Sequence record: AF299300.1
Strand: one strand, 5' to 3'
From: Escherichia phage phiX174
DNA: 5,359 nucleotides
Shown here: in pieces, positions 52 to 5,359 of the stretch
How the letters are laid out: every line of letters begins with the position of its first letter
Position numbering within the stretch: the stretch's first letter is position 1
The notes under the pieces: generated by a model
Told to the model about the DNA's origin: nothing
Databases searched by the model: none
What the model saw: only the letters and a program-made list of their open reading frames with translations
Translations under genes and position numbers: made by a program

Positions 52-136
52 TGAGTCGAAAAATTATCTTGATAAAGCAGGAATTACTACTGCTTGTTTA
101 CGAATTAAATCGAAGTGGACTGCTGGCGGAAAATGA
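1..136 (+). CDS. A: Replication initiation protein A (and A*), C-terminal 45 codons; continuation of the ORF that leaves the window at 5359 (circular genome wrap)
   Basis: Codon spanning 5358-5359+1 is CAG; frame from 2 reads [44 protein letters not shown] then TGA at 134-136. Contiguous with the open frame 3954..5359. Matches the A C-terminus as I recall it. Confidence 0.9.
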
Positions 137-221
137 GAAAATTCGACCTATCCTTGCGCAGCTCGAGAAGCTCTTACTTTGCGACCTTTCGCCATCAACT
201 AACGATTCTGTCAAAAACTGA
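51..221 (+). CDS. K: Protein K (small accessory protein, 56 aa)
   Basis: ATG at 51 shares one nt with the B stop (TGATG). Translates to [56 protein letters not shown], stop TGA 219-221. Absent from the ORF track only because it is under 60 aa. Overlaps A and C in the third frame. Confidence 0.88.
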
Positions 222-393
222 CGCGTTGGATGAGGAGAAGTGGCTTAATATGCTTGGCACGTTCGTCAAGGACTGGTTTAGATATGAGTCACATTTTGTT
301 CATGGTAGAGATTCTCTTGTTGACATTTTAAAAGAGCGTGGATTACTATCTGAGTCCGATGCTGTTCAACCACTAATAGGTAAGAAATCATGA
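133..393 (+). CDS. C: Protein C (DNA maturation / ssDNA synthesis switch, 86 aa)
   Basis: ORF track frame 115..393; canonical start is the ATG at 133 ([10 protein letters not shown]...), which overlaps the A stop as ATGA (133-136). Stop TGA 391-393 overlaps the D start. Confidence 0.9.
320..358 (+). promoter_or_regulatory. Candidate sigma70 promoter PD inside gene C, driving the D-E-J-F-G-H transcripts
   Basis: TTGACA at 320-325, 18-nt spacer, TACTAT at 344-349; predicted start near 356-358. Consistent with the phiX174 D promoter being located within C. Confidence 0.5.
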
Positions 394-848
394 GTCAAGT
401 TACTGAACAATCCGTACGTTTCCAGACCGCTTTGGCCTCTATTAAGCTCATTCAGGCTTCTGCCGTTTTGGATTTAACCGAAGATGATTTCGATTTTCTG
501 ACGAGTAACAAAGTTTGGATTGCTACTGACCGCTCTCGTGCTCGTCGCTGCGTTGAGGCTTGCGTTTATGGTACGCTGGACTTTGTGGGATACCCTCGCT
601 TTCCTGCTCCTGTTGAGTTTATTGCTGCCGTCATTGCTTATTATGTTCATCCCGTCAACATTCAAACGGCCTGTCTCATCATGGAAGGCGCTGAATTTAC
701 GGAAAACATTATTAATGGCGTCGAGCGTCCGGTTAAAGCCGCTGAATTGTTCGCGCTTACCTTGCGTGTACGCGCAGGAAACACTGACGTTCTTACTGAC
801 GCAGAAGAAAACGTGCGTCAAAAATTACGTGCAGAAGGAGTGATGTAA
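390..848 (+). CDS. D: External scaffolding protein D (152 aa)
   Basis: ORF track 390..848, 152 aa, [19 protein letters not shown]...AEGVM. ATG 390 overlaps the C stop (ATGA); stop TAA 846-848 overlaps the J start (TAATG). Confidence 0.95.
   Translation: MSQVTEQSVRFQTALASIKLIQASAVLDLTEDDFDFLTSNKVWIATDRSRARRCVEACVYGTLDFVGYPRFPAPVEFIAAVIAYYVHPVNIQTACLIMEGAEFTENIINGVERPVKAAELFALTLRVRAGNTDVLTDAEENVRQKLRAEGVM
568..843 (+). CDS. E: Lysis protein E (91 aa, MraY inhibitor), embedded in D in the +1 frame
   Basis: ORF track frame 520..843; canonical start is the ATG at 568 (MVRWTLWDTLAFLLLLSLLLPSLLIMFIPSTFKRPV...), preceded by GAGG at 556-559. Hydrophobic N-terminal transmembrane segment. Stop TGA 841-843. 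Confidence 0.9.
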   Translation: MVRWTLWDTLAFLLLLSLLLPSLLIMFIPSTFKRPVSSWKALNLRKTLLMASSVRLKPLNCSRLPCVYAQETLTFLLTQKKTCVKNYVQKE

Positions 849-964
849 TGTCTAAAGGTAAAAAACGTTCTGGCGCTCGCCCTGGTCGTCCGCAGCCGTT
901 GCGAGGTACTAAAGGCAAGCGTAAAGGCGCTCGTCTTTGGTATGTAGGTGGTCAACAATTTTAA
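848..964 (+). CDS. J: DNA-binding / packaging protein J (38 aa, highly basic)
   Basis: ATG 848 with GGAG at 837-840. Translates to MSKGKKRSGARPGRPQPLRGTKGKRKGARLWYVGGQQF, stop TAA 962-964. Under 60 aa, so absent from the ORF track. Confidence 0.9.
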   Translation: MSKGKKRSGARPGRPQPLRGTKGKRKGARLWYVGGQQF

Positions 965-973
965 GGATAAATT
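965..973 (+). other. J-F intercistronic spacer, only 9 nt (GGATAAATT); carries the F Shine-Dalgarno; the hairpin expected here is absent
   Basis: J stop at 962-964 and F ATG at 974 are 9 nt apart. AAGGA at 963-967 (overlapping the J stop codon) sits 6 nt before the F ATG. No inverted repeat is present. Confidence 0.8.
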
Positions 974-2257
974 ATGTCTAATATTCAAACTGGCGCCGAG
1001 CGTATGCCGCATGACCTTTCCCATCTTGGCTTCCTTGCTGGTCAGATTGGTCGTCTTATTACCATTTCAACTACTCCGGTTATCGCTGGCGACTCCTTCG
1101 AGATGGACGCCGTTGGCGCTCTCCGTCTTTCTCCATTGCGTCGTGGCCTTGCTATTGACTCTACTGTAGACATTTTTACTTTTTATGTCCCTCATCGTCA
1201 CGTTTATGGTGAACAGTGGATTAAGTTCATGAAGGATGGTGTTAATGCCACTCCTCTCCCGACTGTTAACACTACTGGTTATATTGACCATGCCGCTTTT
1301 CTTGGCACGATTAACCCTGATACCAATAAAATCCCTAAGCATTTGTTTCAGGGTTATTTGAATATCTATAACAACTATTTTAAAGCGCCGTGGATGCCTG
1401 ACCGTACCGAGGCTAACCCTAATGAGCTTAATCAAGATGATGCTCGTTATGGTTTCCGTTGCTGCCATCTCAAAAACATTTGGACTGCTCCGCTTCCTCC
1501 TGAGACTGAGCTTTCTCGCCAAATGACGACTTCTACCACATCTATTGACATTATGGGTCTGCAAGCTGCTTATGCTAATTTGCATACTGACCAAGAACGT
1601 GATTACTTCATGCAGCGTTACCGTGATGTTATTTCTTCATTTGGAGGTAAAACCTCTTATGACGCTGACAACCGTCCTTTACTTGTCATGCGCTCTAATC
1701 TCTGGGCATCTGGCTATGATGTTGATGGAACTGACCAAACGTCGTTAGGCCAGTTTTCTGGTCGTGTTCAACAGACCTATAAACATTCTGTGCCGCGTTT
1801 CTTTGTTCCTGAGCATGGCACTATGTTTACTCTTGCGCTTGTTCGTTTTCCGCCTACTGCGACTAAAGAGATTCAGTACCTTAACGCTAAAGGTGCTTTG
1901 ACTTATACCGATATTGCTGGCGACCCTGTTTTGTATGGCAACTTGCCGCCGCGTGAAATTTCTATGAAGGATGTTTTCCGTTCTGGTGATCCGTCTAAGA
2001 AGTTTAAGATTGCTGAGGGTCAGTGGTATCGTTATGCGCCTTCGTATGTTTCTCCTGCTTATCACCTTCTTGAAGGCTTCCCATTCATTCAGGAACCGCC
2101 TTCTGGTGATTTGCAAGAACGCGTACTTATTCGCCACCATGATTATGACCAGTGTTTCCAGTCCGTTCAGTTGTTGCAGTGGAATAGTCAGGTTAAATTT
2201 AATGTGACCGTTTATCGCAATCTGCCGACCACTCGCGATTCAATCATGACTTCGTGA
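974..2257 (+). CDS. F: Major capsid protein F (427 aa)
   Basis: ORF track 974..2257, 427 aa, MSNIQTGAERMPHDLSHLGFLAGQIGRL...RDSIMTS. Recognised as the microvirus major coat protein. Confidence 0.96.
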   Translation: MSNIQTGAERMPHDLSHLGFLAGQIGRLITISTTPVIAGDSFEMDAVGALRLSPLRRGLAIDSTVDIFTFYVPHRHVYGEQWIKFMKDGVNATPLPTVNTTGYIDHAAFLGTINPDTNKIPKHLFQGYLNIYNNYFKAPWMPDRTEANPNELNQDDARYGFRCCHLKNIWTAPLPPETELSRQMTTSTTSIDIMGLQAAYANLHTDQERDYFMQRYRDVISSFGGKTSYDADNRPLLVMRSNLWASGYDVDGTDQTSLGQFSGRVQQTYKHSVPRFFVPEHGTMFTLALVRFPPTATKEIQYLNAKGALTYTDIAGDPVLYGNLPPREISMKDVFRSGDPSKKFKIAEGQWYRYAPSYVSPAYHLLEGFPFIQEPPSGDLQERVLIRHHDYDQCFQSVQLLQWNSQVKFNVTVYRNLPTTRDSIMTS

Positions 2258-2289
2258 TAAAAGATTGAGTGTGAGGTTATAACGCCGAA

Positions 2290-2315
2290 GCGGTAAAAAT
2301 TTTAATTTTTGCCGC
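2290..2315 (+). terminator. F-G intergenic stem-loop, candidate weak terminator / RNA-stability element (TF region)
   Basis: Inverted repeat GCGGTAAAAATT (2290-2301) / AATTTTTGCCGC (2304-2315), about 11-12 bp stem with one G-U pair. No clean downstream U-tract, so termination would be inefficient. A second small hairpin GCGAAGCGC lies at 2331-2339. Confidence 0.3.
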
Positions 2316-2367
2316 TGAGGGGTTGACCAAGCGAAGCGCGGTAGGTTTTCTGCTTAGGAGTTTAATC

Positions 2368-2895
2368 ATGTTTCAGACTTTTATTTCTCGCCATAATTCA
2401 AACTTTTTTTCTGATAAGCTGGTTCTCACTTCTGTTACTCCAGCTTCTTCGGCACCTGTTTTACAGACACCTAAAGCTACATCGTCAACGTTATATTTTG
2501 ATAGTTTGACGGTTAATGCTGGTAATGGTGGTTTTCTTCATTGCATTCAGATGGATACATCTGTCAACGCCGCTAATCAGGTTGTTTCTGTTGGTGCTGA
2601 TATTGCTTTTGATGCCGACCCTAAATTTTTTGCCTGTTTGGTTCGCTTTGAGTCTTCTTCGGTTCCGACTACCCTCTCGACTGCCTATGATGTTTATCCT
2701 TTGAATGGTCGCCATGATGGTGGTTATTATACCGTCAAGGACTGTGTGACTATTGACGTCCTTCCCCGTACGCCGGGCAATAATGTTTATGTTGGTTTCA
2801 TGGTTTGGTCTAACTTTACCGCTACTAAATGCCGCGGATTGGTTTCGCTGAATCAGGTTATTAAAGAGATTATTTGTCTCCAGCCACTTAAGTGA
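2368..2895 (+). CDS. G: Major spike protein G (175 aa)
   Basis: ORF track frame 2323..2895; canonical start is the ATG at 2368 ([18 protein letters not shown]...), preceded by AGGAG at 2356-2360 with 7-nt spacing. Stop TGA 2893-2895 lies inside the H Shine-Dalgarno. Confidence 0.93.
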
Positions 2896-2903
2896 GGTGA
2901 TTT

Positions 2904-3890
2904 ATGTTTGGTGCTATTGCTGGCGGTATTGCTTCTGCTCTTGCTGGTGGCGTCATGTCTAAATTGTTTGGAGGCGGTCAAAAAGCCGCCTCCGGTGGCA
3001 TTCAAGGTGATGTGCTTGCTACCGATAGCAATACTGTAGGCATGGGTGATGCTGGTATTAAATCTGCCATTCAAGGCTCTAATGTTCCTAACTCTGATGA
3101 GTCCGCCCCTAGTTTTGTTTCTGGTGTTATGGCTAAAGCTGGTAAAGGACTTCTTGAAGGTACGTTGCAGGCTGGCACTTCTGCCGTTTCTGATAAGTTG
3201 CTTGATTTGGTTGGACTTGGTGGCAAGTCTGCCGCTGATAAAGGAAAGGATACTCGTGATTATCTTGCTGCTGCATTTCCTGAGCTTAATGCTTGGGAGC
3301 GTGCTGGTGCTGATGCTTCCTCTGCTGGTATGGTTGACGCCGGATTTGAGAATCAAAAAGAGCTTACTAAAATGCAACTGGACAATCAGAAAGAGATTGC
3401 CGAGATGCAAGATGAGACTCAAAAAGAGATTGCTGGCATTCAGTCGGCGACTTCACGCCAGAATACGAAAGACCAGGTATATGCACAAAATGAGATGCTT
3501 GCTTATCAACAGAAGGAGTCTACTGCTCGCGTTGCGTCTATTATGGAAAACACCAATCTTTCCAAGCAACAGCAGGTTTCCGAGATTATGCGCCAAATGC
3601 TTACTCAAGCTCAAACGGCTGGTCAGTATTTTACCAATGACCAAATCAAAGAAATGACTCGCAAGGTTAGTGCTGAGGTTGACTTAGTTCATCAGCAAAC
3701 GCAGAATCAGCGGTATGGCTCTTCTCATATTGGCGCTACTGCAAAGGATATTTCTAATGTCGTCACTGATGCTGCTTCTGGTGTGGTTGATATTTTTCAT
3801 GGTATTGATAAAGCTGTTGCCGATACTTGGAACAATTTCTGGAAAGACGGTAAAGCTGATGGTATTGGCTCTAATTTGTCTAGGAAATAA
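2904..3890 (+). CDS. H: Minor spike / DNA pilot protein H (328 aa)
   Basis: ORF track 2904..3890, 328 aa, [16 protein letters not shown]...[16 protein letters not shown] precedes the ATG. Gly/Ala-rich N-terminus and Gln-rich coiled-coil region typical of H. Confidence 0.95.
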
Positions 3891-3899
3891 CCGTCAGGA

Positions 3900-3935
3900 T
3901 TGACACCCTCCCAATTGTATGTTTTCATGCCTCCA
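3900..3935 (+). promoter_or_regulatory. Candidate sigma70 promoter PA in the H-A intergenic region
   Basis: TTGACA at 3900-3905, 17-nt spacer, TTTCAT at 3923-3928 (weak -10); predicted start around 3935, inside the downstream hairpin. Confidence 0.45.
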
Positions 3936-3953
3936 AATCTTGGAGGCTTTTTT
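3929..3953 (+). terminator. Intrinsic terminator after H (TH): perfect 8-bp stem, 3-nt loop, T6 tract
   Basis: GCCTCCAA-ATC-TTGGAGGC at 3929-3947 followed by TTTTTT at 3948-3953. The 3' arm GGAGG (3942-3946) doubles as the Shine-Dalgarno for gene A (ATG 3954). Confidence 0.75.
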
Positions 3954-5359
3954 ATGGTTCGTTCTTATTACCCTTCTGAATGTCACGCTGATTATTTTGA
4001 CTTTGAGCGTATCGAGGCTCTTAAACCTGCTATTGAGGCTTGTGGCATTTCTACTCTTTCTCAATCCCCAATGCTTGGCTTCCATAAGCAGATGGATAAC
4101 CGCATCAAGCTCTTGGAAGAGATTCTGTCTTTTCGTATGCAGGGCGTTGAGTTCGATAATGGTGATATGTATGTTGACGGCCATAAGGCTGCTTCTGACG
4201 TTCGTGATGAGTTTGTATCTGTTACTGAGAAGTTAATGGATGAATTGGCACAATGCTACAATGTGCTCCCCCAACTTGATATTAATAACACTATAGACCA
4301 CCGCCCCGAAGGGGACGAAAAATGGTTTTTAGAGAACGAGAAGACGGTTACGCAGTTTTGCCGCAAGCTGGCTGCTGAACGCCCTCTTAAGGATATTCGC
4401 GATGAGTATAATTACCCCAAAAAGAAAGGTATTAAGGATGAGTGTTCAAGATTGCTGGAGGCCTCCACTATGAAATCGCGTAGAGGCTTTACTATTCAGC
4501 GTTTGATGAATGCAATGCGACAGGCTCATGCTGATGGTTGGTTTATCGTTTTTGACACTCTCACGTTGGCTGACGACCGATTAGAGGCGTTTTATGATAA
4601 TCCCAATGCTTTGCGTGACTATTTTCGTGATATTGGTCGTATGGTTCTTGCTGCCGAGGGTCGCAAGGCTAATGATTCACACGCCGACTGCTATCAGTAT
4701 TTTTGTGTGCCTGAGTATGGTACAGCTAATGGCCGTCTTCATTTCCATGCGGTGCATTTTATGCGGACACTTCCTACGGGTAGCGTTGACCCTAATTTTG
4801 GTCGTCGGGTACGCAATCGCCGCCAGTTAAATAGCTTGCAAAATACGTGGCCTTATGGTTACAGTATGCCCATCGCAGTTCGCTACACGCAGGACGCTTT
4901 TTCACGTTCTGGTTGGTTGTGGCCTGTTGATGCTAAAGGTGAGCCGCTTAAAGCTACCAGTTATATGGCTGTTGGTTTCTATGTGGCTAAATACGTTAAC
5001 AAAAAGTCAGATATGGACCTTGCTGCTAAAGGTCTAGGAGCTAAAGAATGGAACAACTCACTAAAAACCAAGCTGTCGCTACTTCCCAAGAAGCTGTTCA
5101 GAATCAGAATGAGCCGCAACTTCGGGATGAAAATGCTCACAATGACAAATCTGTCCACGGAGTGCTTAATCCAACTTACCAAGCTGGGTTACGACGCGAC
5201 GCCGTTCAACCAGATATTGAAGCAGAACGCAAAAAGAGAGATGAGATTGAGGCTGGGAAAAGTTACTGTAGCCGACGTTTTGGCGGCGCAACCTGTGACG
5301 ACAAATCTGCTCAAATTTATGCGCGCTTCGATAAAAATGATTGGCGTATCCAACCTGCA
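3954..5359 (+). CDS. A: Replication initiation protein A (rolling-circle endonuclease), N-terminal 468 codons; ORF continues at position 1 and ends at 136 (513 aa in total)
   Basis: ATG 3954 (MVRSYYPSECHADYFDFERIEALK...). The frame is open to the window end, which is why the ORF track does not list it. Contains the HFHAVHF and YVAKYVNKKSD motifs typical of a rolling-circle initiator. Confidence 0.93.
   Translation, partial: MVRSYYPSECHADYFDFERIEALKPAIEACGISTLSQSPMLGFHKQMDNRIKLLEEILSFRMQGVEFDNGDMYVDGHKAASDVRDEFVSVTEKLMDELAQCYNVLPQLDINNTIDHRPEGDEKWFLENEKTVTQFCRKLAAERPLKDIRDEYNYPKKKGIKDECSRLLEASTMKSRRGFTIQRLMNAMRQAHADGWFIVFDTLTLADDRLEAFYDNPNALRDYFRDIGRMVLAAEGRKANDSHADCYQYFCVPEYGTANGRLHFHAVHFMRTLPTGSVDPNFGRRVRNRRQLNSLQNTWPYGYSMPIAVRYTQDAFSRSGWLWPVDAKGEPLKATSYMAVGFYVAKYVNKKSDMDLAAKGLGAKEWNNSLKTKLSLLPKKLFRIRMSRNFGMKMLTMTNLSTECLIQLTKLGYDATPFNQILKQNAKREMRLRLGKVTVADVLAAQPVTTNLLKFMRASIKMIGVSNL
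4272..4301 (+). other. Origin of viral-strand (rolling-circle) replication: conserved 30-nt A-protein recognition and nick sequence inside gene A
   Basis: CAACTTGATATTAATAACACTATAGACCAC at 4272-4301. The A-protein nick falls between G4278 and A4279 (CTTG/ATATT). Followed by the small palindrome CCCCGAAGGGG. Confidence 0.8.
4470..5359 (+). CDS. A*: Protein A* (in-frame internal initiation within A), N-terminal part; continues at 1..136
   Basis: ATG 4470 is in the A frame and preceded by GGAGG at 4457-4461 with 8-nt spacing. Translates to MKSRRGFTIQRLMNAMRQAHADGWF... Confidence 0.75.
   Translation, partial: MKSRRGFTIQRLMNAMRQAHADGWFIVFDTLTLADDRLEAFYDNPNALRDYFRDIGRMVLAAEGRKANDSHADCYQYFCVPEYGTANGRLHFHAVHFMRTLPTGSVDPNFGRRVRNRRQLNSLQNTWPYGYSMPIAVRYTQDAFSRSGWLWPVDAKGEPLKATSYMAVGFYVAKYVNKKSDMDLAAKGLGAKEWNNSLKTKLSLLPKKLFRIRMSRNFGMKMLTMTNLSTECLIQLTKLGYDATPFNQILKQNAKREMRLRLGKVTVADVLAAQPVTTNLLKFMRASIKMIGVSNL
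4836..4872 (+). promoter_or_regulatory. Candidate promoter PB inside gene A, upstream of B
   Basis: TTGCAA at 4836-4841 with possible -10 TTACAG/TACAGT at 4859-4865. Weak match; exact position uncertain. Confidence 0.3.
5048..5359 (+). CDS. B: Internal scaffolding protein B, N-terminal 104 codons; continues at 1..51 (120 aa in total)
   Basis: ATG 5048 preceded by AGGAG at 5036-5040 with 7-nt spacing. Translates to MEQLTKNQAVATSQEAVQNQNEPQLRDENAHNDKSVHGVLNPTYQAGLRRDAVQPDIEAERKKRDEIEAGKSYCSRRFGGATCDDKSAQIYARFDKNDWRIQPA. Frame open to the window end, different frame from A. Confidence 0.92.
   Translation, partial: MEQLTKNQAVATSQEAVQNQNEPQLRDENAHNDKSVHGVLNPTYQAGLRRDAVQPDIEAERKKRDEIEAGKSYCSRRFGGATCDDKSAQIYARFDKNDWRIQPA

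What the first reader, a model, noticed from the sequence alone, without database searches (positions are those of the whole stretch)
3900..3956. H-A intergenic region packs a promoter, a strong terminator hairpin and the gene A ribosome-binding site into 57 nt
The TTGACA -35 box (3900-3905) lies upstream of a perfect 8-bp stem-loop plus T6 tract (3929-3953). The hairpin's 3' arm contains GGAGG, the only Shine-Dalgarno for A, 8 nt before ATG 3954. Transcripts that terminate here end at the T-tract, while transcripts starting from PA would begin within or just before the hairpin. So the terminator can sequester the A ribosome-binding site in readthrough RNA but not in PA-initiated RNA, which is a plausible way of keeping A expression low. 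The overlap is directly visible; the regulatory reading is inference.
Basis: partly seen in the sequence, partly recalled or inferred. Interest (0 to 1): 0.35.

Follow-up and report, generated by a model that had tools for sequence, protein, structure and literature searches.

The report
phiX174 promoter-terminator-RBS overlap before gene A
This is the long-known spot in phage phiX174 where the gene A promoter, the terminator after gene H and gene A's ribosome-binding site overlap; the idea that the terminator hairpin also hides the ribosome site on read-through RNA fits the folding and comparative evidence but has not been tested experimentally.

Summary
The window is phiX174, a 5,359-nt variant lacking 27 nt of the J-F spacer (window = phiX coordinate - 27). 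An 8-bp perfect hairpin plus T-run occurs in 0.2% of shuffles.

The composite pA / T_H / gene-A RBS is already annotated and published. GenBank places the A mRNA start at phiX 3962 (window 3935), inside the 5' arm. RNA-seq treats pA-T_H as one overlapping element. Saturation mutagenesis maps the -35, -10 and RBS-in-3'-arm.

New here:
- The layout (-10 abutting the 5' arm, SD in the 3' arm, T-run, ATG) is conserved in all three Bullavirinae genera. The six core pairs are kept in 16 distinct sequences, with compensatory changes (GCCTCC/GGAGGC versus GCCCTC/GAGGGC).
- Predicted cost of opening the SD is 9-11 kcal/mol in read-through RNA and 2-3 kcal/mol in pA-initiated leaders.
- Experimentally evolved lines change promoter and loop but keep stem and masking.

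The regulatory reading (A translated only from pA RNA) is plausible and resembles IS10/IS200 protection from outside transcription. It remains inference. Single 5'-arm mutations are mostly tolerated but would not unmask the SD. Verdict: real, functional, already known.

The parts
3888..3890 (+). Stop codon (TAA) of gene H. It lies 38 nt upstream of the hairpin, so a terminating ribosome should not reach the stem (inference).
   Evidence: ORF 2904..3890; H annotated at phiX 2931-3917; sequence.
3900..3905 (+). pA -35 hexamer TTGACA (6/6 match to consensus).
   Evidence: Sequence. 15 of the 35 detrimental pA mutations fall here (phiX 3927-3932). Conserved as TTGAC[A/T] in all genera. Changed to TTGACG in evolved lines.
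3918..3921 (+). TATG (TRTG-type) upstream extension of the -10.
   Evidence: 9 of 10 mutations are detrimental (phiX 3945-3948). Sequence.
3923..3928 (+). pA -10 hexamer TTTCAT (4/6), 17-nt spacer, directly abutting the hairpin.
   Evidence: phiX 3950-3955, 11 of 18 mutations detrimental. Missed by the consensus scan, which requires A at position 2. A -10 abutting the stem is seen in every relative.
3935..3935 (+). Annotated transcription start of the gene A mRNA (AAAUCUUGG...), at position 7 of the 8-nt 5' arm.
   Evidence: J02482 misc_feature 'transcription start site' at 3962; also listed for NC_001422. It is the 7th base after the -10.
3929..3936 (+). 5' arm of the T_H hairpin (GCCTCCAA). 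Present only in RNA that started upstream.
   Evidence: 3 of 23 mutations detrimental. Co-varies with the 3' arm.
3937..3939 (+). Loop (ATC).
   Evidence: Loop length varies from 3 to 8 nt (5 nt in alpha3-like phages when their extended stem is counted) among relatives. Insertions occur here in evolved lines.
3940..3947 (+). 3' arm of the T_H hairpin (TTGGAGGC).
   Evidence: 17 of 27 mutations detrimental.
3942..3946 (+). Shine-Dalgarno GGAGG of gene A, inside the 3' arm, 7 nt before the ATG.
   Evidence: Sequence. RBS annotated at phiX 3969-3973. Opening cost 9-11 kcal/mol in read-through RNA versus 1.9-3.4 kcal/mol in the pA leader.
3948..3953 (+). T6 tract: the terminator U-tract, and also the SD-to-ATG spacer.
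   Evidence: A T-run is conserved in relatives.
3954..3956 (+). ATG of gene A (the ORF runs across the end of the window).
   Evidence: A annotated at phiX 3981..136. tblastn of the first 149 aa.

Best explanation
The 57 nt are the phiX174 pA / T_H / gene-A RBS composite. One hairpin serves transcripts differently depending on where they started.

Shown or documented:
- pA is a weak sigma-70 promoter: a perfect -35, a degenerate -10 helped by a TATG extension, and a start at A3935.
- The 8-bp hairpin plus T6 is the intrinsic terminator T_H, which stops most polymerases arriving from pB and pD through genes F, G and H.
- The 3' arm carries gene A's only SD.

Inferred:
- RNA arriving from upstream contains both arms. 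It either terminates in the T-tract just before the ATG or, if it reads through, keeps a -11.6 kcal/mol hairpin that buries GGAGG, so it is translated poorly.
- RNA started at pA lacks six of the eight 5'-arm bases. It therefore cannot form the hairpin, is not terminated at the T6 that lies 14-19 nt from its own start, and exposes the SD.
- The net effect is that the hairpin insulates gene A from the heavy late-gene transcription at both the transcriptional and the translational level, which ties synthesis of the cis-acting A protein to the weak pA.
For: Identity and anatomy.

Not chance: 0.2% of shuffles; DNA fold z = -5.2.

Published function:
- pA-T_H overlap, net 0.29-fold transcript level across the element, reported as T_H blocking about 70%.
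- T_H has the strongest hairpin score of the four terminators, and pA transcript is low.
- Mutagenesis maps the -35, TATG, -10 and RBS, with the 3' arm sensitive and the 5' arm tolerant.

Differential masking:
- The hairpin appears in the MFE and centroid structures of read-through RNA, while the pA leader has an unstructured centroid.
- SD opening cost is 9.1-10.7 versus 1.9-3.4 kcal/mol in phiX174. The same contrast holds in G4, ID2, alpha3 and L019: 10-16 versus 2.5-5.2 kcal/mol.

Conservation:
- The same order, with the -10 abutting the 5' arm, is found in phiX-, G4- and alpha3-like phages and in divergent metagenomic relatives.
- The six core pairs are 100% paired in 16 distinct sequences. 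Five of ten pairs change on both sides, and 0 of 500 shuffles reach the observed covariation score.
- The G.U intermediates fit a plus-sense RNA structure.

Evolved lines alter the promoter and loop but keep the stem (-9.3 to -12.4 kcal/mol) and the masking (8.4-11.3 kcal/mol).

NC35 lost the -10 and the 5' arm together while keeping the SD.

A documented analogue exists: the IS200 terminator plus SD-sequestering stem, and IS10.
Against: - There is no measurement of translation from read-through versus pA RNA.
- RNA-seq could not separate pA initiation from T_H read-through, so the share of A mRNA that is read-through is unknown.
- Only 3 of 23 5'-arm mutations are detrimental, so the hairpin as such is not strongly required in that assay. 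Single changes do leave at least 6.1 kcal/mol of predicted masking.
- NC35 is viable without the hairpin.
- In longer pA RNAs, equilibrium folding pairs the SD with coding-region segments that shift with the length folded. The pA leader is therefore less masked rather than demonstrably free.
- The covariation reflects few independent events, mainly the alpha3 clade versus the rest.
- The start site rests on a GenBank annotation from classic in vitro work that I could not read.
Confidence: 0.6

Rival explanations
1. The overlap comes from packing signals into a very small genome and nothing more. The hairpin works only as a terminator and 3'-end stabiliser, and the SD sits in its 3' arm because a G+C-rich stem and a GGAGG are easy to combine. 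Masking of the SD in read-through RNA then has no selected role. A stays low because of termination, the weak pA and the instability of pA RNA.
For: - The literature explains low A mRNA by T_H, the weak pA and instability.
- The 5' arm tolerates mutation while the 3' arm does not, which the authors attribute to the RBS.
- NC35 is viable without the 5' arm.
- Current gene-expression models fit the data without differential translation.
Against: - A terminator alone does not require the -10 to abut the stem, so that the start always falls at the end of the 5' arm or in the loop. Yet this holds in every genus despite divergent spacer sequence.
- When the SD changed (GGAGG to GAGGG), the 5' arm changed to match.
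- Physics still predicts 6-8 kcal/mol of extra masking whether or not it was selected.
- The same design recurs before a second ORF in alpha3-like phages.
Confidence: 0.3
2. The conserved hairpin acts mainly at the DNA level in the single-stranded viral genome or the replicative form. One example would be as part of the 'reduction sequence' (phiX 3705-4200), proposed to bind a limiting host factor needed for complementary-strand synthesis.
For: - The spacer lies inside the cloned fragment that inhibits superinfecting phage.
- The long-term evolution study notes more substitutions in the H-A spacer than expected, and proposes competition for a host replication factor as one explanation.
- The hairpin is also stable as ssDNA (-8.8 kcal/mol, z = -5.2).
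Against: - The determinants of the reduction effect that have been mapped are missense changes in the C-terminal part of H, not in the spacer.
- The complementary-strand origin (PriA site) is in the F-G spacer.
- The same authors note that the substitutions lie in the terminator signal.
- G.U (G.T) intermediates, the T-run and the SD/ATG geometry fit an RNA-level element.
- The evolved changes hit promoter hexamers.
Confidence: 0.07
3. The hairpin is a chance inverted repeat with no function.
For: The generic terminator scan finds as many weak candidates in the window as in shuffles (6 versus 5.8).
Against: - This particular 8-bp stem plus T6 occurs in 0.2% of shuffles.
- It is conserved with compensatory changes across genera.
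- It coincides with a measured drop in transcription.
Confidence: 0.01

Closest known systems
phiX174 promoter pA / terminator T_H / gene A RBS, as already annotated and published
   Same: It is this element, base for base: identical to J02482 3850-4050. The record annotations give Promoter A at 3918-3961 (MN385565) and the transcription start at 3962 (J02482, NC_001422). The papers read give T_H as the terminator in the H-A spacer, its hairpin (3' stem cited as nt 3967-3975) and the RBS at 3969-3973. From my own memory, not read here, the 1977 genome paper already noted that the A mRNA start lies within the terminator hairpin.
   Different: The papers I could read describe the overlap, and note that RBS mutations explain the 3'-arm sensitivity. 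None states that read-through RNA should be translationally silent for A (searches found nothing). The window also lacks the T_J hairpin.
Protection of IS transposase genes from impinging transcription (IS10 'fold-back inhibition'; IS200 left-end terminator plus SD-sequestering stem)
   Same: - Outside transcripts contain a 5' complement that pairs with the SD.
- The element's own promoter starts within or after that complement.
- IS200 also uses a terminator against incoming transcription. IS10 is cited for sequestered translation signals (the mechanistic detail comes from my own knowledge of Davis, Simons and Kleckner 1985).
   Different: - Here a single hairpin does both jobs, termination and SD masking, and it sits in a phage genome rather than a transposon end.
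- Translational repression has been demonstrated for IS10 and IS200 but not here.
Canonical rho-independent terminators
   Same: G+C-rich 8-bp stem, 3-nt loop, and a U6 tract immediately after the stem. It acts in one direction only.
   Different: A promoter's -10 abuts the stem, a transcription start lies inside it, and the 3' arm and U-tract double as the SD and spacer of the next gene.
Other phiX174 terminators that overlap other signals (T_F with the PriA site; terminators overlapping RBSs)
   Same: The mutagenesis study reports several non-coding elements with overlapping annotations and asymmetric stem sensitivity.
   Different: Among the non-coding elements that study lists, only pA-T_H combines a promoter, a terminator and an RBS.

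Membership tests
Rho-independent (intrinsic) terminator | G+C-rich stem of at least 5 bp with a short loop | tested here: met
   8 perfect pairs, 5 of them G-C, with a 3-nt loop. RNA hairpin -11.6 kcal/mol.
Rho-independent (intrinsic) terminator | U/T-tract immediately 3' of the stem | tested here: met
   T6 at 3948-3953, 0 nt after the stem. A T-run is present in all relatives.
Rho-independent (intrinsic) terminator | Measured loss of transcription across the site | not testable with these tools
   Literature only: RNA-seq shows a net 0.29-fold change across pA-T_H, reported as about 70% blocked.
Rho-independent (intrinsic) terminator | Stem maintained by compensatory change in relatives | tested here: met
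   The six core pairs are paired in 16 of 16 distinct sequences. Five of ten pairs change on both sides, and 0 of 500 shuffles reach the observed score. Few independent events underlie this.
Sigma-70 promoter (pA) | -35 hexamer close to TTGACA | tested here: met
   TTGACA, 6/6, at 3900-3905. Mutationally sensitive.
Sigma-70 promoter (pA) | -10 hexamer close to TATAAT at 16-18 nt | tested here: inconclusive
   TTTCAT is 4/6 with a 17-nt spacer and lacks A at position 2, so the consensus scan did not call it. Mutagenesis supports it, together with a TATG extension.
Sigma-70 promoter (pA) | Mapped transcription start about 7 nt after the -10 | not testable with these tools
   GenBank annotation at phiX 3962 = window 3935, the 7th base after the -10. 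The primary mapping papers are not held.
Shine-Dalgarno ribosome-binding site | Purine-rich anti-16S match 5-10 nt before the start codon | tested here: met
   GGAGG at 3942-3946, 7 nt before the ATG at 3954. Mutations here are detrimental.
IS10/IS200-type protection from outside transcription (works-like comparison, not membership) | The SD lies in the 3' half of a stem whose 5' half is upstream of the gene's own transcription start | tested here: met
   The SD is in the 3' arm, and the annotated start is at position 7 of the 8-nt 5' arm. SD opening cost is 9-11 versus 2-3 kcal/mol.
IS10/IS200-type protection from outside transcription (works-like comparison, not membership) | Read-through transcripts are translated much less than own-promoter transcripts | not testable with these tools
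   This needs toeprinting or translational fusions. Only thermodynamic predictions are available.
IS10/IS200-type protection from outside transcription (works-like comparison, not membership) | Located at the end of a transposable element, upstream of a transposase gene | tested here: not met
   The element is in a microvirus genome, upstream of the replication initiator gene A. It is an analogue, not a member.

The most novel reading that the evidence does not exclude
The T_H hairpin is a selected dual insulator conserved across the subfamily. It terminates most late-gene transcripts and also silences translation of gene A on those that escape, so A protein is made only from RNA initiated at pA. 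Alpha3-like phages carry a second copy of the same design in front of a conserved, unannotated 122-aa ORF. Restricting A synthesis to pA transcripts could also contribute to the classic cis-action of A protein; that last step is pure speculation.
Probability: 0.4. Interest if true: 0.4.

Novelty: already known. Interest (0 to 1): 0.22.

Why it matters
phiX174 is a reference genome for gene-expression modelling, genome refactoring and saturation mutagenesis. Current models give every transcript that carries gene A the same translatability. If read-through RNA is in fact silent for A, then A dosage depends on pA alone. That would change how T_H and pA mutations, decompressed genomes and adaptive changes in this spacer are interpreted. 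The effect on the wider field would be modest, because the element itself and this type of mechanism are both already known.

Tried and rejected
- **Per-nucleotide fitness table.** The stored copy of the table from the 2026 mutagenesis preprint is sorted lexicographically and truncated before position 3956. A term search hit only structure files, so I used the main-text numbers.
- **Classic transcript papers.** PMC171030 and PMC171140 are not held. Statements about the 1977-1981 work therefore rest on later citations or on my memory.
- **Literature searches.** Searches for a published statement of the RBS-masking idea found nothing. The searchable library lacks most older papers, so this is weak evidence of absence.
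- **Rfam.** No family matched 3700-4200 at E <= 1.
- **PHROGs.** No family matched the alpha3-like 122-aa ORF.
- **Metagenome scan.** Most hits were phiX174 spike-in, including a misassembled tandem array. About eight divergent loci were useful.
- **Long-range pairing.** Pairing of gene A's SD with the GCCUCCA next to the A* RBS (4461-4467) is not predicted. The SD's predicted partners in long pA RNAs shift with the length folded, so I did not build on them.
- **NC35.** The consensus promoter/terminator scan found nothing in bases 1-800, so how NC35 expresses A is unresolved.
Full report
**What the window is.** The window matches phiX174 at 99.9% over its whole length. It is a 5,359-nt variant. 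Compared with a full-length copy, 27 nt of the J-F spacer are missing (junction 964|965), which removes the T_J terminator hairpin. Everything downstream is therefore shifted by 27: gene H is 2904-3890 (phiX 2931-3917) and the gene A ATG is 3954 (phiX 3981). The 201 nt around the finding are identical to GenBank J02482.

**Checking the observation.** All the described features are at the stated coordinates:
- TTGACA at 3900-3905
- stem GCCTCCAA 3929-3936 / TTGGAGGC 3940-3947, eight perfect pairs, with loop ATC
- T6 at 3948-3953
- GGAGG at 3942-3946, inside the 3' arm
- ATG at 3954

Two independent tools report the same hairpin. It is not a chance feature. A perfect 8-bp hairpin followed by a T-run occurs in 2 of 1,000 dinucleotide-preserving shuffles of the window. 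The segment also folds far better than shuffles as DNA (z = -5.2). It is TTTCAT at 3923-3928, 17 nt after the -35, and it ends exactly where the stem begins. It has only 4 of 6 consensus bases and no A at position 2, which is why the consensus scan missed it.

**What is already documented.** This is the well-known pA / T_H / gene-A RBS composite.
- MN385565 annotates 'Promoter A' at phiX 3918-3961.
- J02482 and NC_001422 annotate a transcription start site at 3962, which is window 3935. That is the seventh base after the -10 and position 7 of the 8-nt 5' arm.
- The RNA-seq map of phiX174 transcription treats pA-T_H as one overlapping element. It reports a net 0.29-fold change in transcript level from the end of H to the start of A. 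It also reports T_H as the most effective of the four terminators, blocking about 70%, and notes that pA initiation cannot be separated from T_H read-through.
- A qPCR study gives T_H the strongest hairpin score and attributes the low pA transcript level largely to mRNA instability, citing Hayashi and Hayashi 1981.
- A 2026 saturation-mutagenesis preprint maps detrimental mutations to the -35 (phiX 3927-3932), to a TATG extension (3945-3948; 9 of 10 detrimental) and to the -10 (3950-3955). It reports asymmetric sensitivity of the T_H stem: 17 of 27 mutations are detrimental in the 3' arm, which carries the RBS GGAGG (3969-3973), against 3 of 23 in the 5' arm.

From memory only, the 1977 genome paper already remarked that the A mRNA starts within this hairpin. 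I could not read that paper or the Hayashi papers.

**Folding.** RNA that includes upstream sequence forms the hairpin in both the minimum-energy and the centroid structures. RNA starting at 3935 has an unstructured centroid. I computed the free-energy cost of making all five SD bases unpaired. It is 9.1-10.7 kcal/mol for read-through RNAs of several lengths, and 1.9-3.4 kcal/mol for pA-initiated leaders. The hairpin alone is -11.6 kcal/mol.

There is a caveat. When several hundred more nucleotides of pA RNA are folded at equilibrium, the SD pairs with coding-region segments, and the partner changes with the length folded (3972-3976, 4191-4197, 4442-4448). I regard these as unreliable, and they lie within the translated ORF. 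They do mean the pA leader is 'much less masked' rather than demonstrably free. The H stop codon lies 38 nt before the stem, so a ribosome terminating on H should not open it (inference).

**Comparative evidence.** I extracted the H-A junction from G4, ID2, ID52, alpha3, WA13, SP14 and SGF3. I added 20 IMG/VR loci and the divergent loci from a metagenome scan. Every genus shows the same order:
- TTGAC[A/T]
- a spacer of 15-19 nt under the search pattern, 17-18 nt in most
- a -10-like hexamer that abuts the first base of the stem
- a hairpin with an SD-like run in its 3' arm
- a T-run
- ATG

The spacer sequences themselves are not alignable between genera. Because the -10 always abuts the stem, the expected start always falls at the end of the 5' arm or in the loop.

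In an alignment of 16 distinct hairpins, the six core pairs are paired in every sequence (three of these are G.U). Five of ten pairs change on both sides. Zero of 500 column shuffles reach the observed covariation score, and sliding the partner by 1-3 columns lowers pairing from 88% to 35-57% (the 12-sequence version is). The clearest case is phiX/G4 GCCTCC...GGAGGC against alpha3 GCCCTC...GAGGGC. There the SD itself changed and the 5' arm changed to match. This rests on few independent events, mainly one clade split plus G.U intermediates. The same contrast in SD opening energy holds in G4, ID2, alpha3 and L019: 10-16 versus 2.5-5.2 kcal/mol.

**Natural and experimental variants.** Phage NC35 (NC_007820) is a viable alpha3-like isolate. 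It carries a 29-nt deletion that removes the -10 and the 5' arm together while keeping the SD. This fits the idea that without its own promoter the gene needs an unmasked SD. It is a single case, however, and how NC35 expresses A is unknown.

Among 161 phiX-like GenBank genomes, 81 differ from the window in the 96 nt around the spacer. Many of these genomes come from evolution experiments. A sample of eight shows the following changes:
- -35 TTGACA to TTGACG
- -10 T3924C
- a spacer change, C3908T
- two stem changes that convert a G-C pair to G.U (C3934T and C3947T); C3947T also makes the SD GGAGGU and the T-run T7
- an extra A in the loop region
- a TG insertion before TGGAGGC, found in 11 records from at least two experiments

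All of these variants keep a hairpin of -9.3 to -12.4 kcal/mol and an SD opening cost of 8.4-11.3 kcal/mol in read-through RNA. Selection in the laboratory therefore retunes the promoter and loop but has not broken the stem.

**Does the mutagenesis argue against masking?** The 5' arm tolerates most single substitutions. I computed all 24 single 5'-arm mutants. The hairpin stays at -4.7 to -12.1 kcal/mol, and the SD opening cost never falls below 6.1 kcal/mol, against 1.9 for the pA leader. Single substitutions are therefore a weak test of the masking model. They do show that full hairpin strength is not critical for fitness in that assay.

**Most likely mechanism.** One hairpin discriminates transcripts by origin. 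RNA from pB and pD carries both arms, so most of it terminates in the T-tract just before the ATG (documented). The remainder keeps the SD buried (inferred). RNA from pA lacks the 5' arm, so it is neither terminated by the T6 that lies 14-19 nt from its own start nor masked (inferred from the annotated start and from folding). Gene A expression is thus insulated from late-gene transcription at two levels.
- I put about 0.97 on the anatomy and the terminator, promoter and RBS assignments.
- I put about 0.6 on the two-level insulation as a real effect.
- Whether it was selected for, rather than being a by-product of compaction, is less certain. The compaction rival gets 0.3.
- A DNA-level role gets 0.07. 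It is suggested by the 'reduction sequence' (phiX 3705-4200), which includes the spacer, and by a proposal that the spacer competes for a host replication factor. The mapped determinants of that effect lie in the H coding part, the known complementary-strand origin is in the F-G spacer, and the geometry is that of an RNA signal.

**Comparison with known systems.** As an object, this is the published phiX174 element. As a mechanism, the closest parallel is the protection of insertion-sequence transposase genes from outside transcription. IS200 has a left-end terminator against impinging transcription and a stem that sequesters the SD. IS10 sequesters its translation signals in transcripts from external promoters (cited; the detail is from my own knowledge). 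Here one hairpin would do both jobs, in a phage rather than a transposon, and the translational half is untested. No Rfam family covers the region.

**Verdict.** It gains support from conservation, covariation and the evolved variants, and it remains unproven. I found no paper stating it, but the searchable library lacks the older literature. Interest is low to moderate.

Noticed in passing
window 962-974 (junction 964|965): The window lacks 27 nt of the J-F spacer (TTGCAGGGGCTTCGGCCCCTTACTTGA in a full-length copy), which is the T_J terminator hairpin. The junction recreates an SD-like TAAGGA before the F ATG at 974. GenBank holds other 5,359-nt phiX174 isolates (AF299304, AF299309, AF299310, AF176030). 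Without T_J, more transcription should reach T_H (inference).
   Followed up: partly
L004 1-209 (alpha3); L006 1-434 (WA13); also L017-L029: Alpha3-like phages have a 758-nt H-A spacer that opens with a second copy of the same design. It reads TTGACA, TATG, a 12-13-bp hairpin (-12 to -17.7 kcal/mol) with AGGAG in its 3' arm, a T-run, then the ATG of a conserved 122-aa ORF. The ORF is cut to 47 aa in the alpha3 reference and 94 aa in L017. It is not annotated in NC_001330 or NC_007821, and it has no PHROG match.
   Followed up: partly
L026 690-730 (phage NC35, NC_007820): This natural alpha3-like isolate has a 29-nt deletion that removes the pA -10 and the 5' arm of the hairpin together while keeping the SD (GAGGA) and the T-run. 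No promoter-like or terminator-like site was found in bases 1-800, so how it expresses gene A is unknown.
   Followed up: partly
window 3900-3953, compared with L105-L112: The spacer is a hotspot in experimentally evolved phiX174. Changes seen are -35 A3905G, C3908T, -10 T3924C, C3934T and C3947T (both G-C to G.U), an extra A in the loop region, and a TG insertion before TGGAGGC in 11 GenBank records from at least two experiments. All keep the stem and the predicted SD masking.
   Followed up: yes
window 2970-2993, 3929-3947 and 4456-4467: GCCTCC occurs 6 times on the two strands against 1.6 expected (1 of 200 shuffles reach 6). Every copy sits next to its own complement:
- a perfect 8-bp hairpin inside gene H (GGAGGCGG...CCGCCTCC)
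- T_H
- the palindrome TGGAGGCCTCCA, which contains the SD of the internal A* start (ATG 4470)

So the A and A* ribosome sites share the heptamer TGGAGGC. Pairing between gene A's SD (3941-3947) and the GCCUCCA beside the A* site (4461-4467) was not predicted.
   Followed up: partly
window 3678-4173 (phiX 3705-4200): The finding lies inside the published 'reduction sequence'. This is a cloned fragment that makes cells resistant to phiX174, apparently by blocking conversion of the incoming single strand to double-stranded form. The mapped determinants are in the C-terminal part of H.
   Followed up: partly
L030-L094 (contig FUFK010037421.1, 327,964 nt): One metagenome contig is made of about 60 tandem copies of phiX174. 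This is almost certainly a misassembled sequencing spike-in. Most metagenome hits to protein A were phiX174 contamination.
   Followed up: no
L008 (PP501405, Salmonella phage SP14): This phiX174-like microvirus (98% identical over the first 149 aa of protein A) is filed under Caudoviricetes in its record. Its gene A is annotated as starting 27 nt upstream of the conserved ATG, inside the promoter/hairpin region.
   Followed up: no
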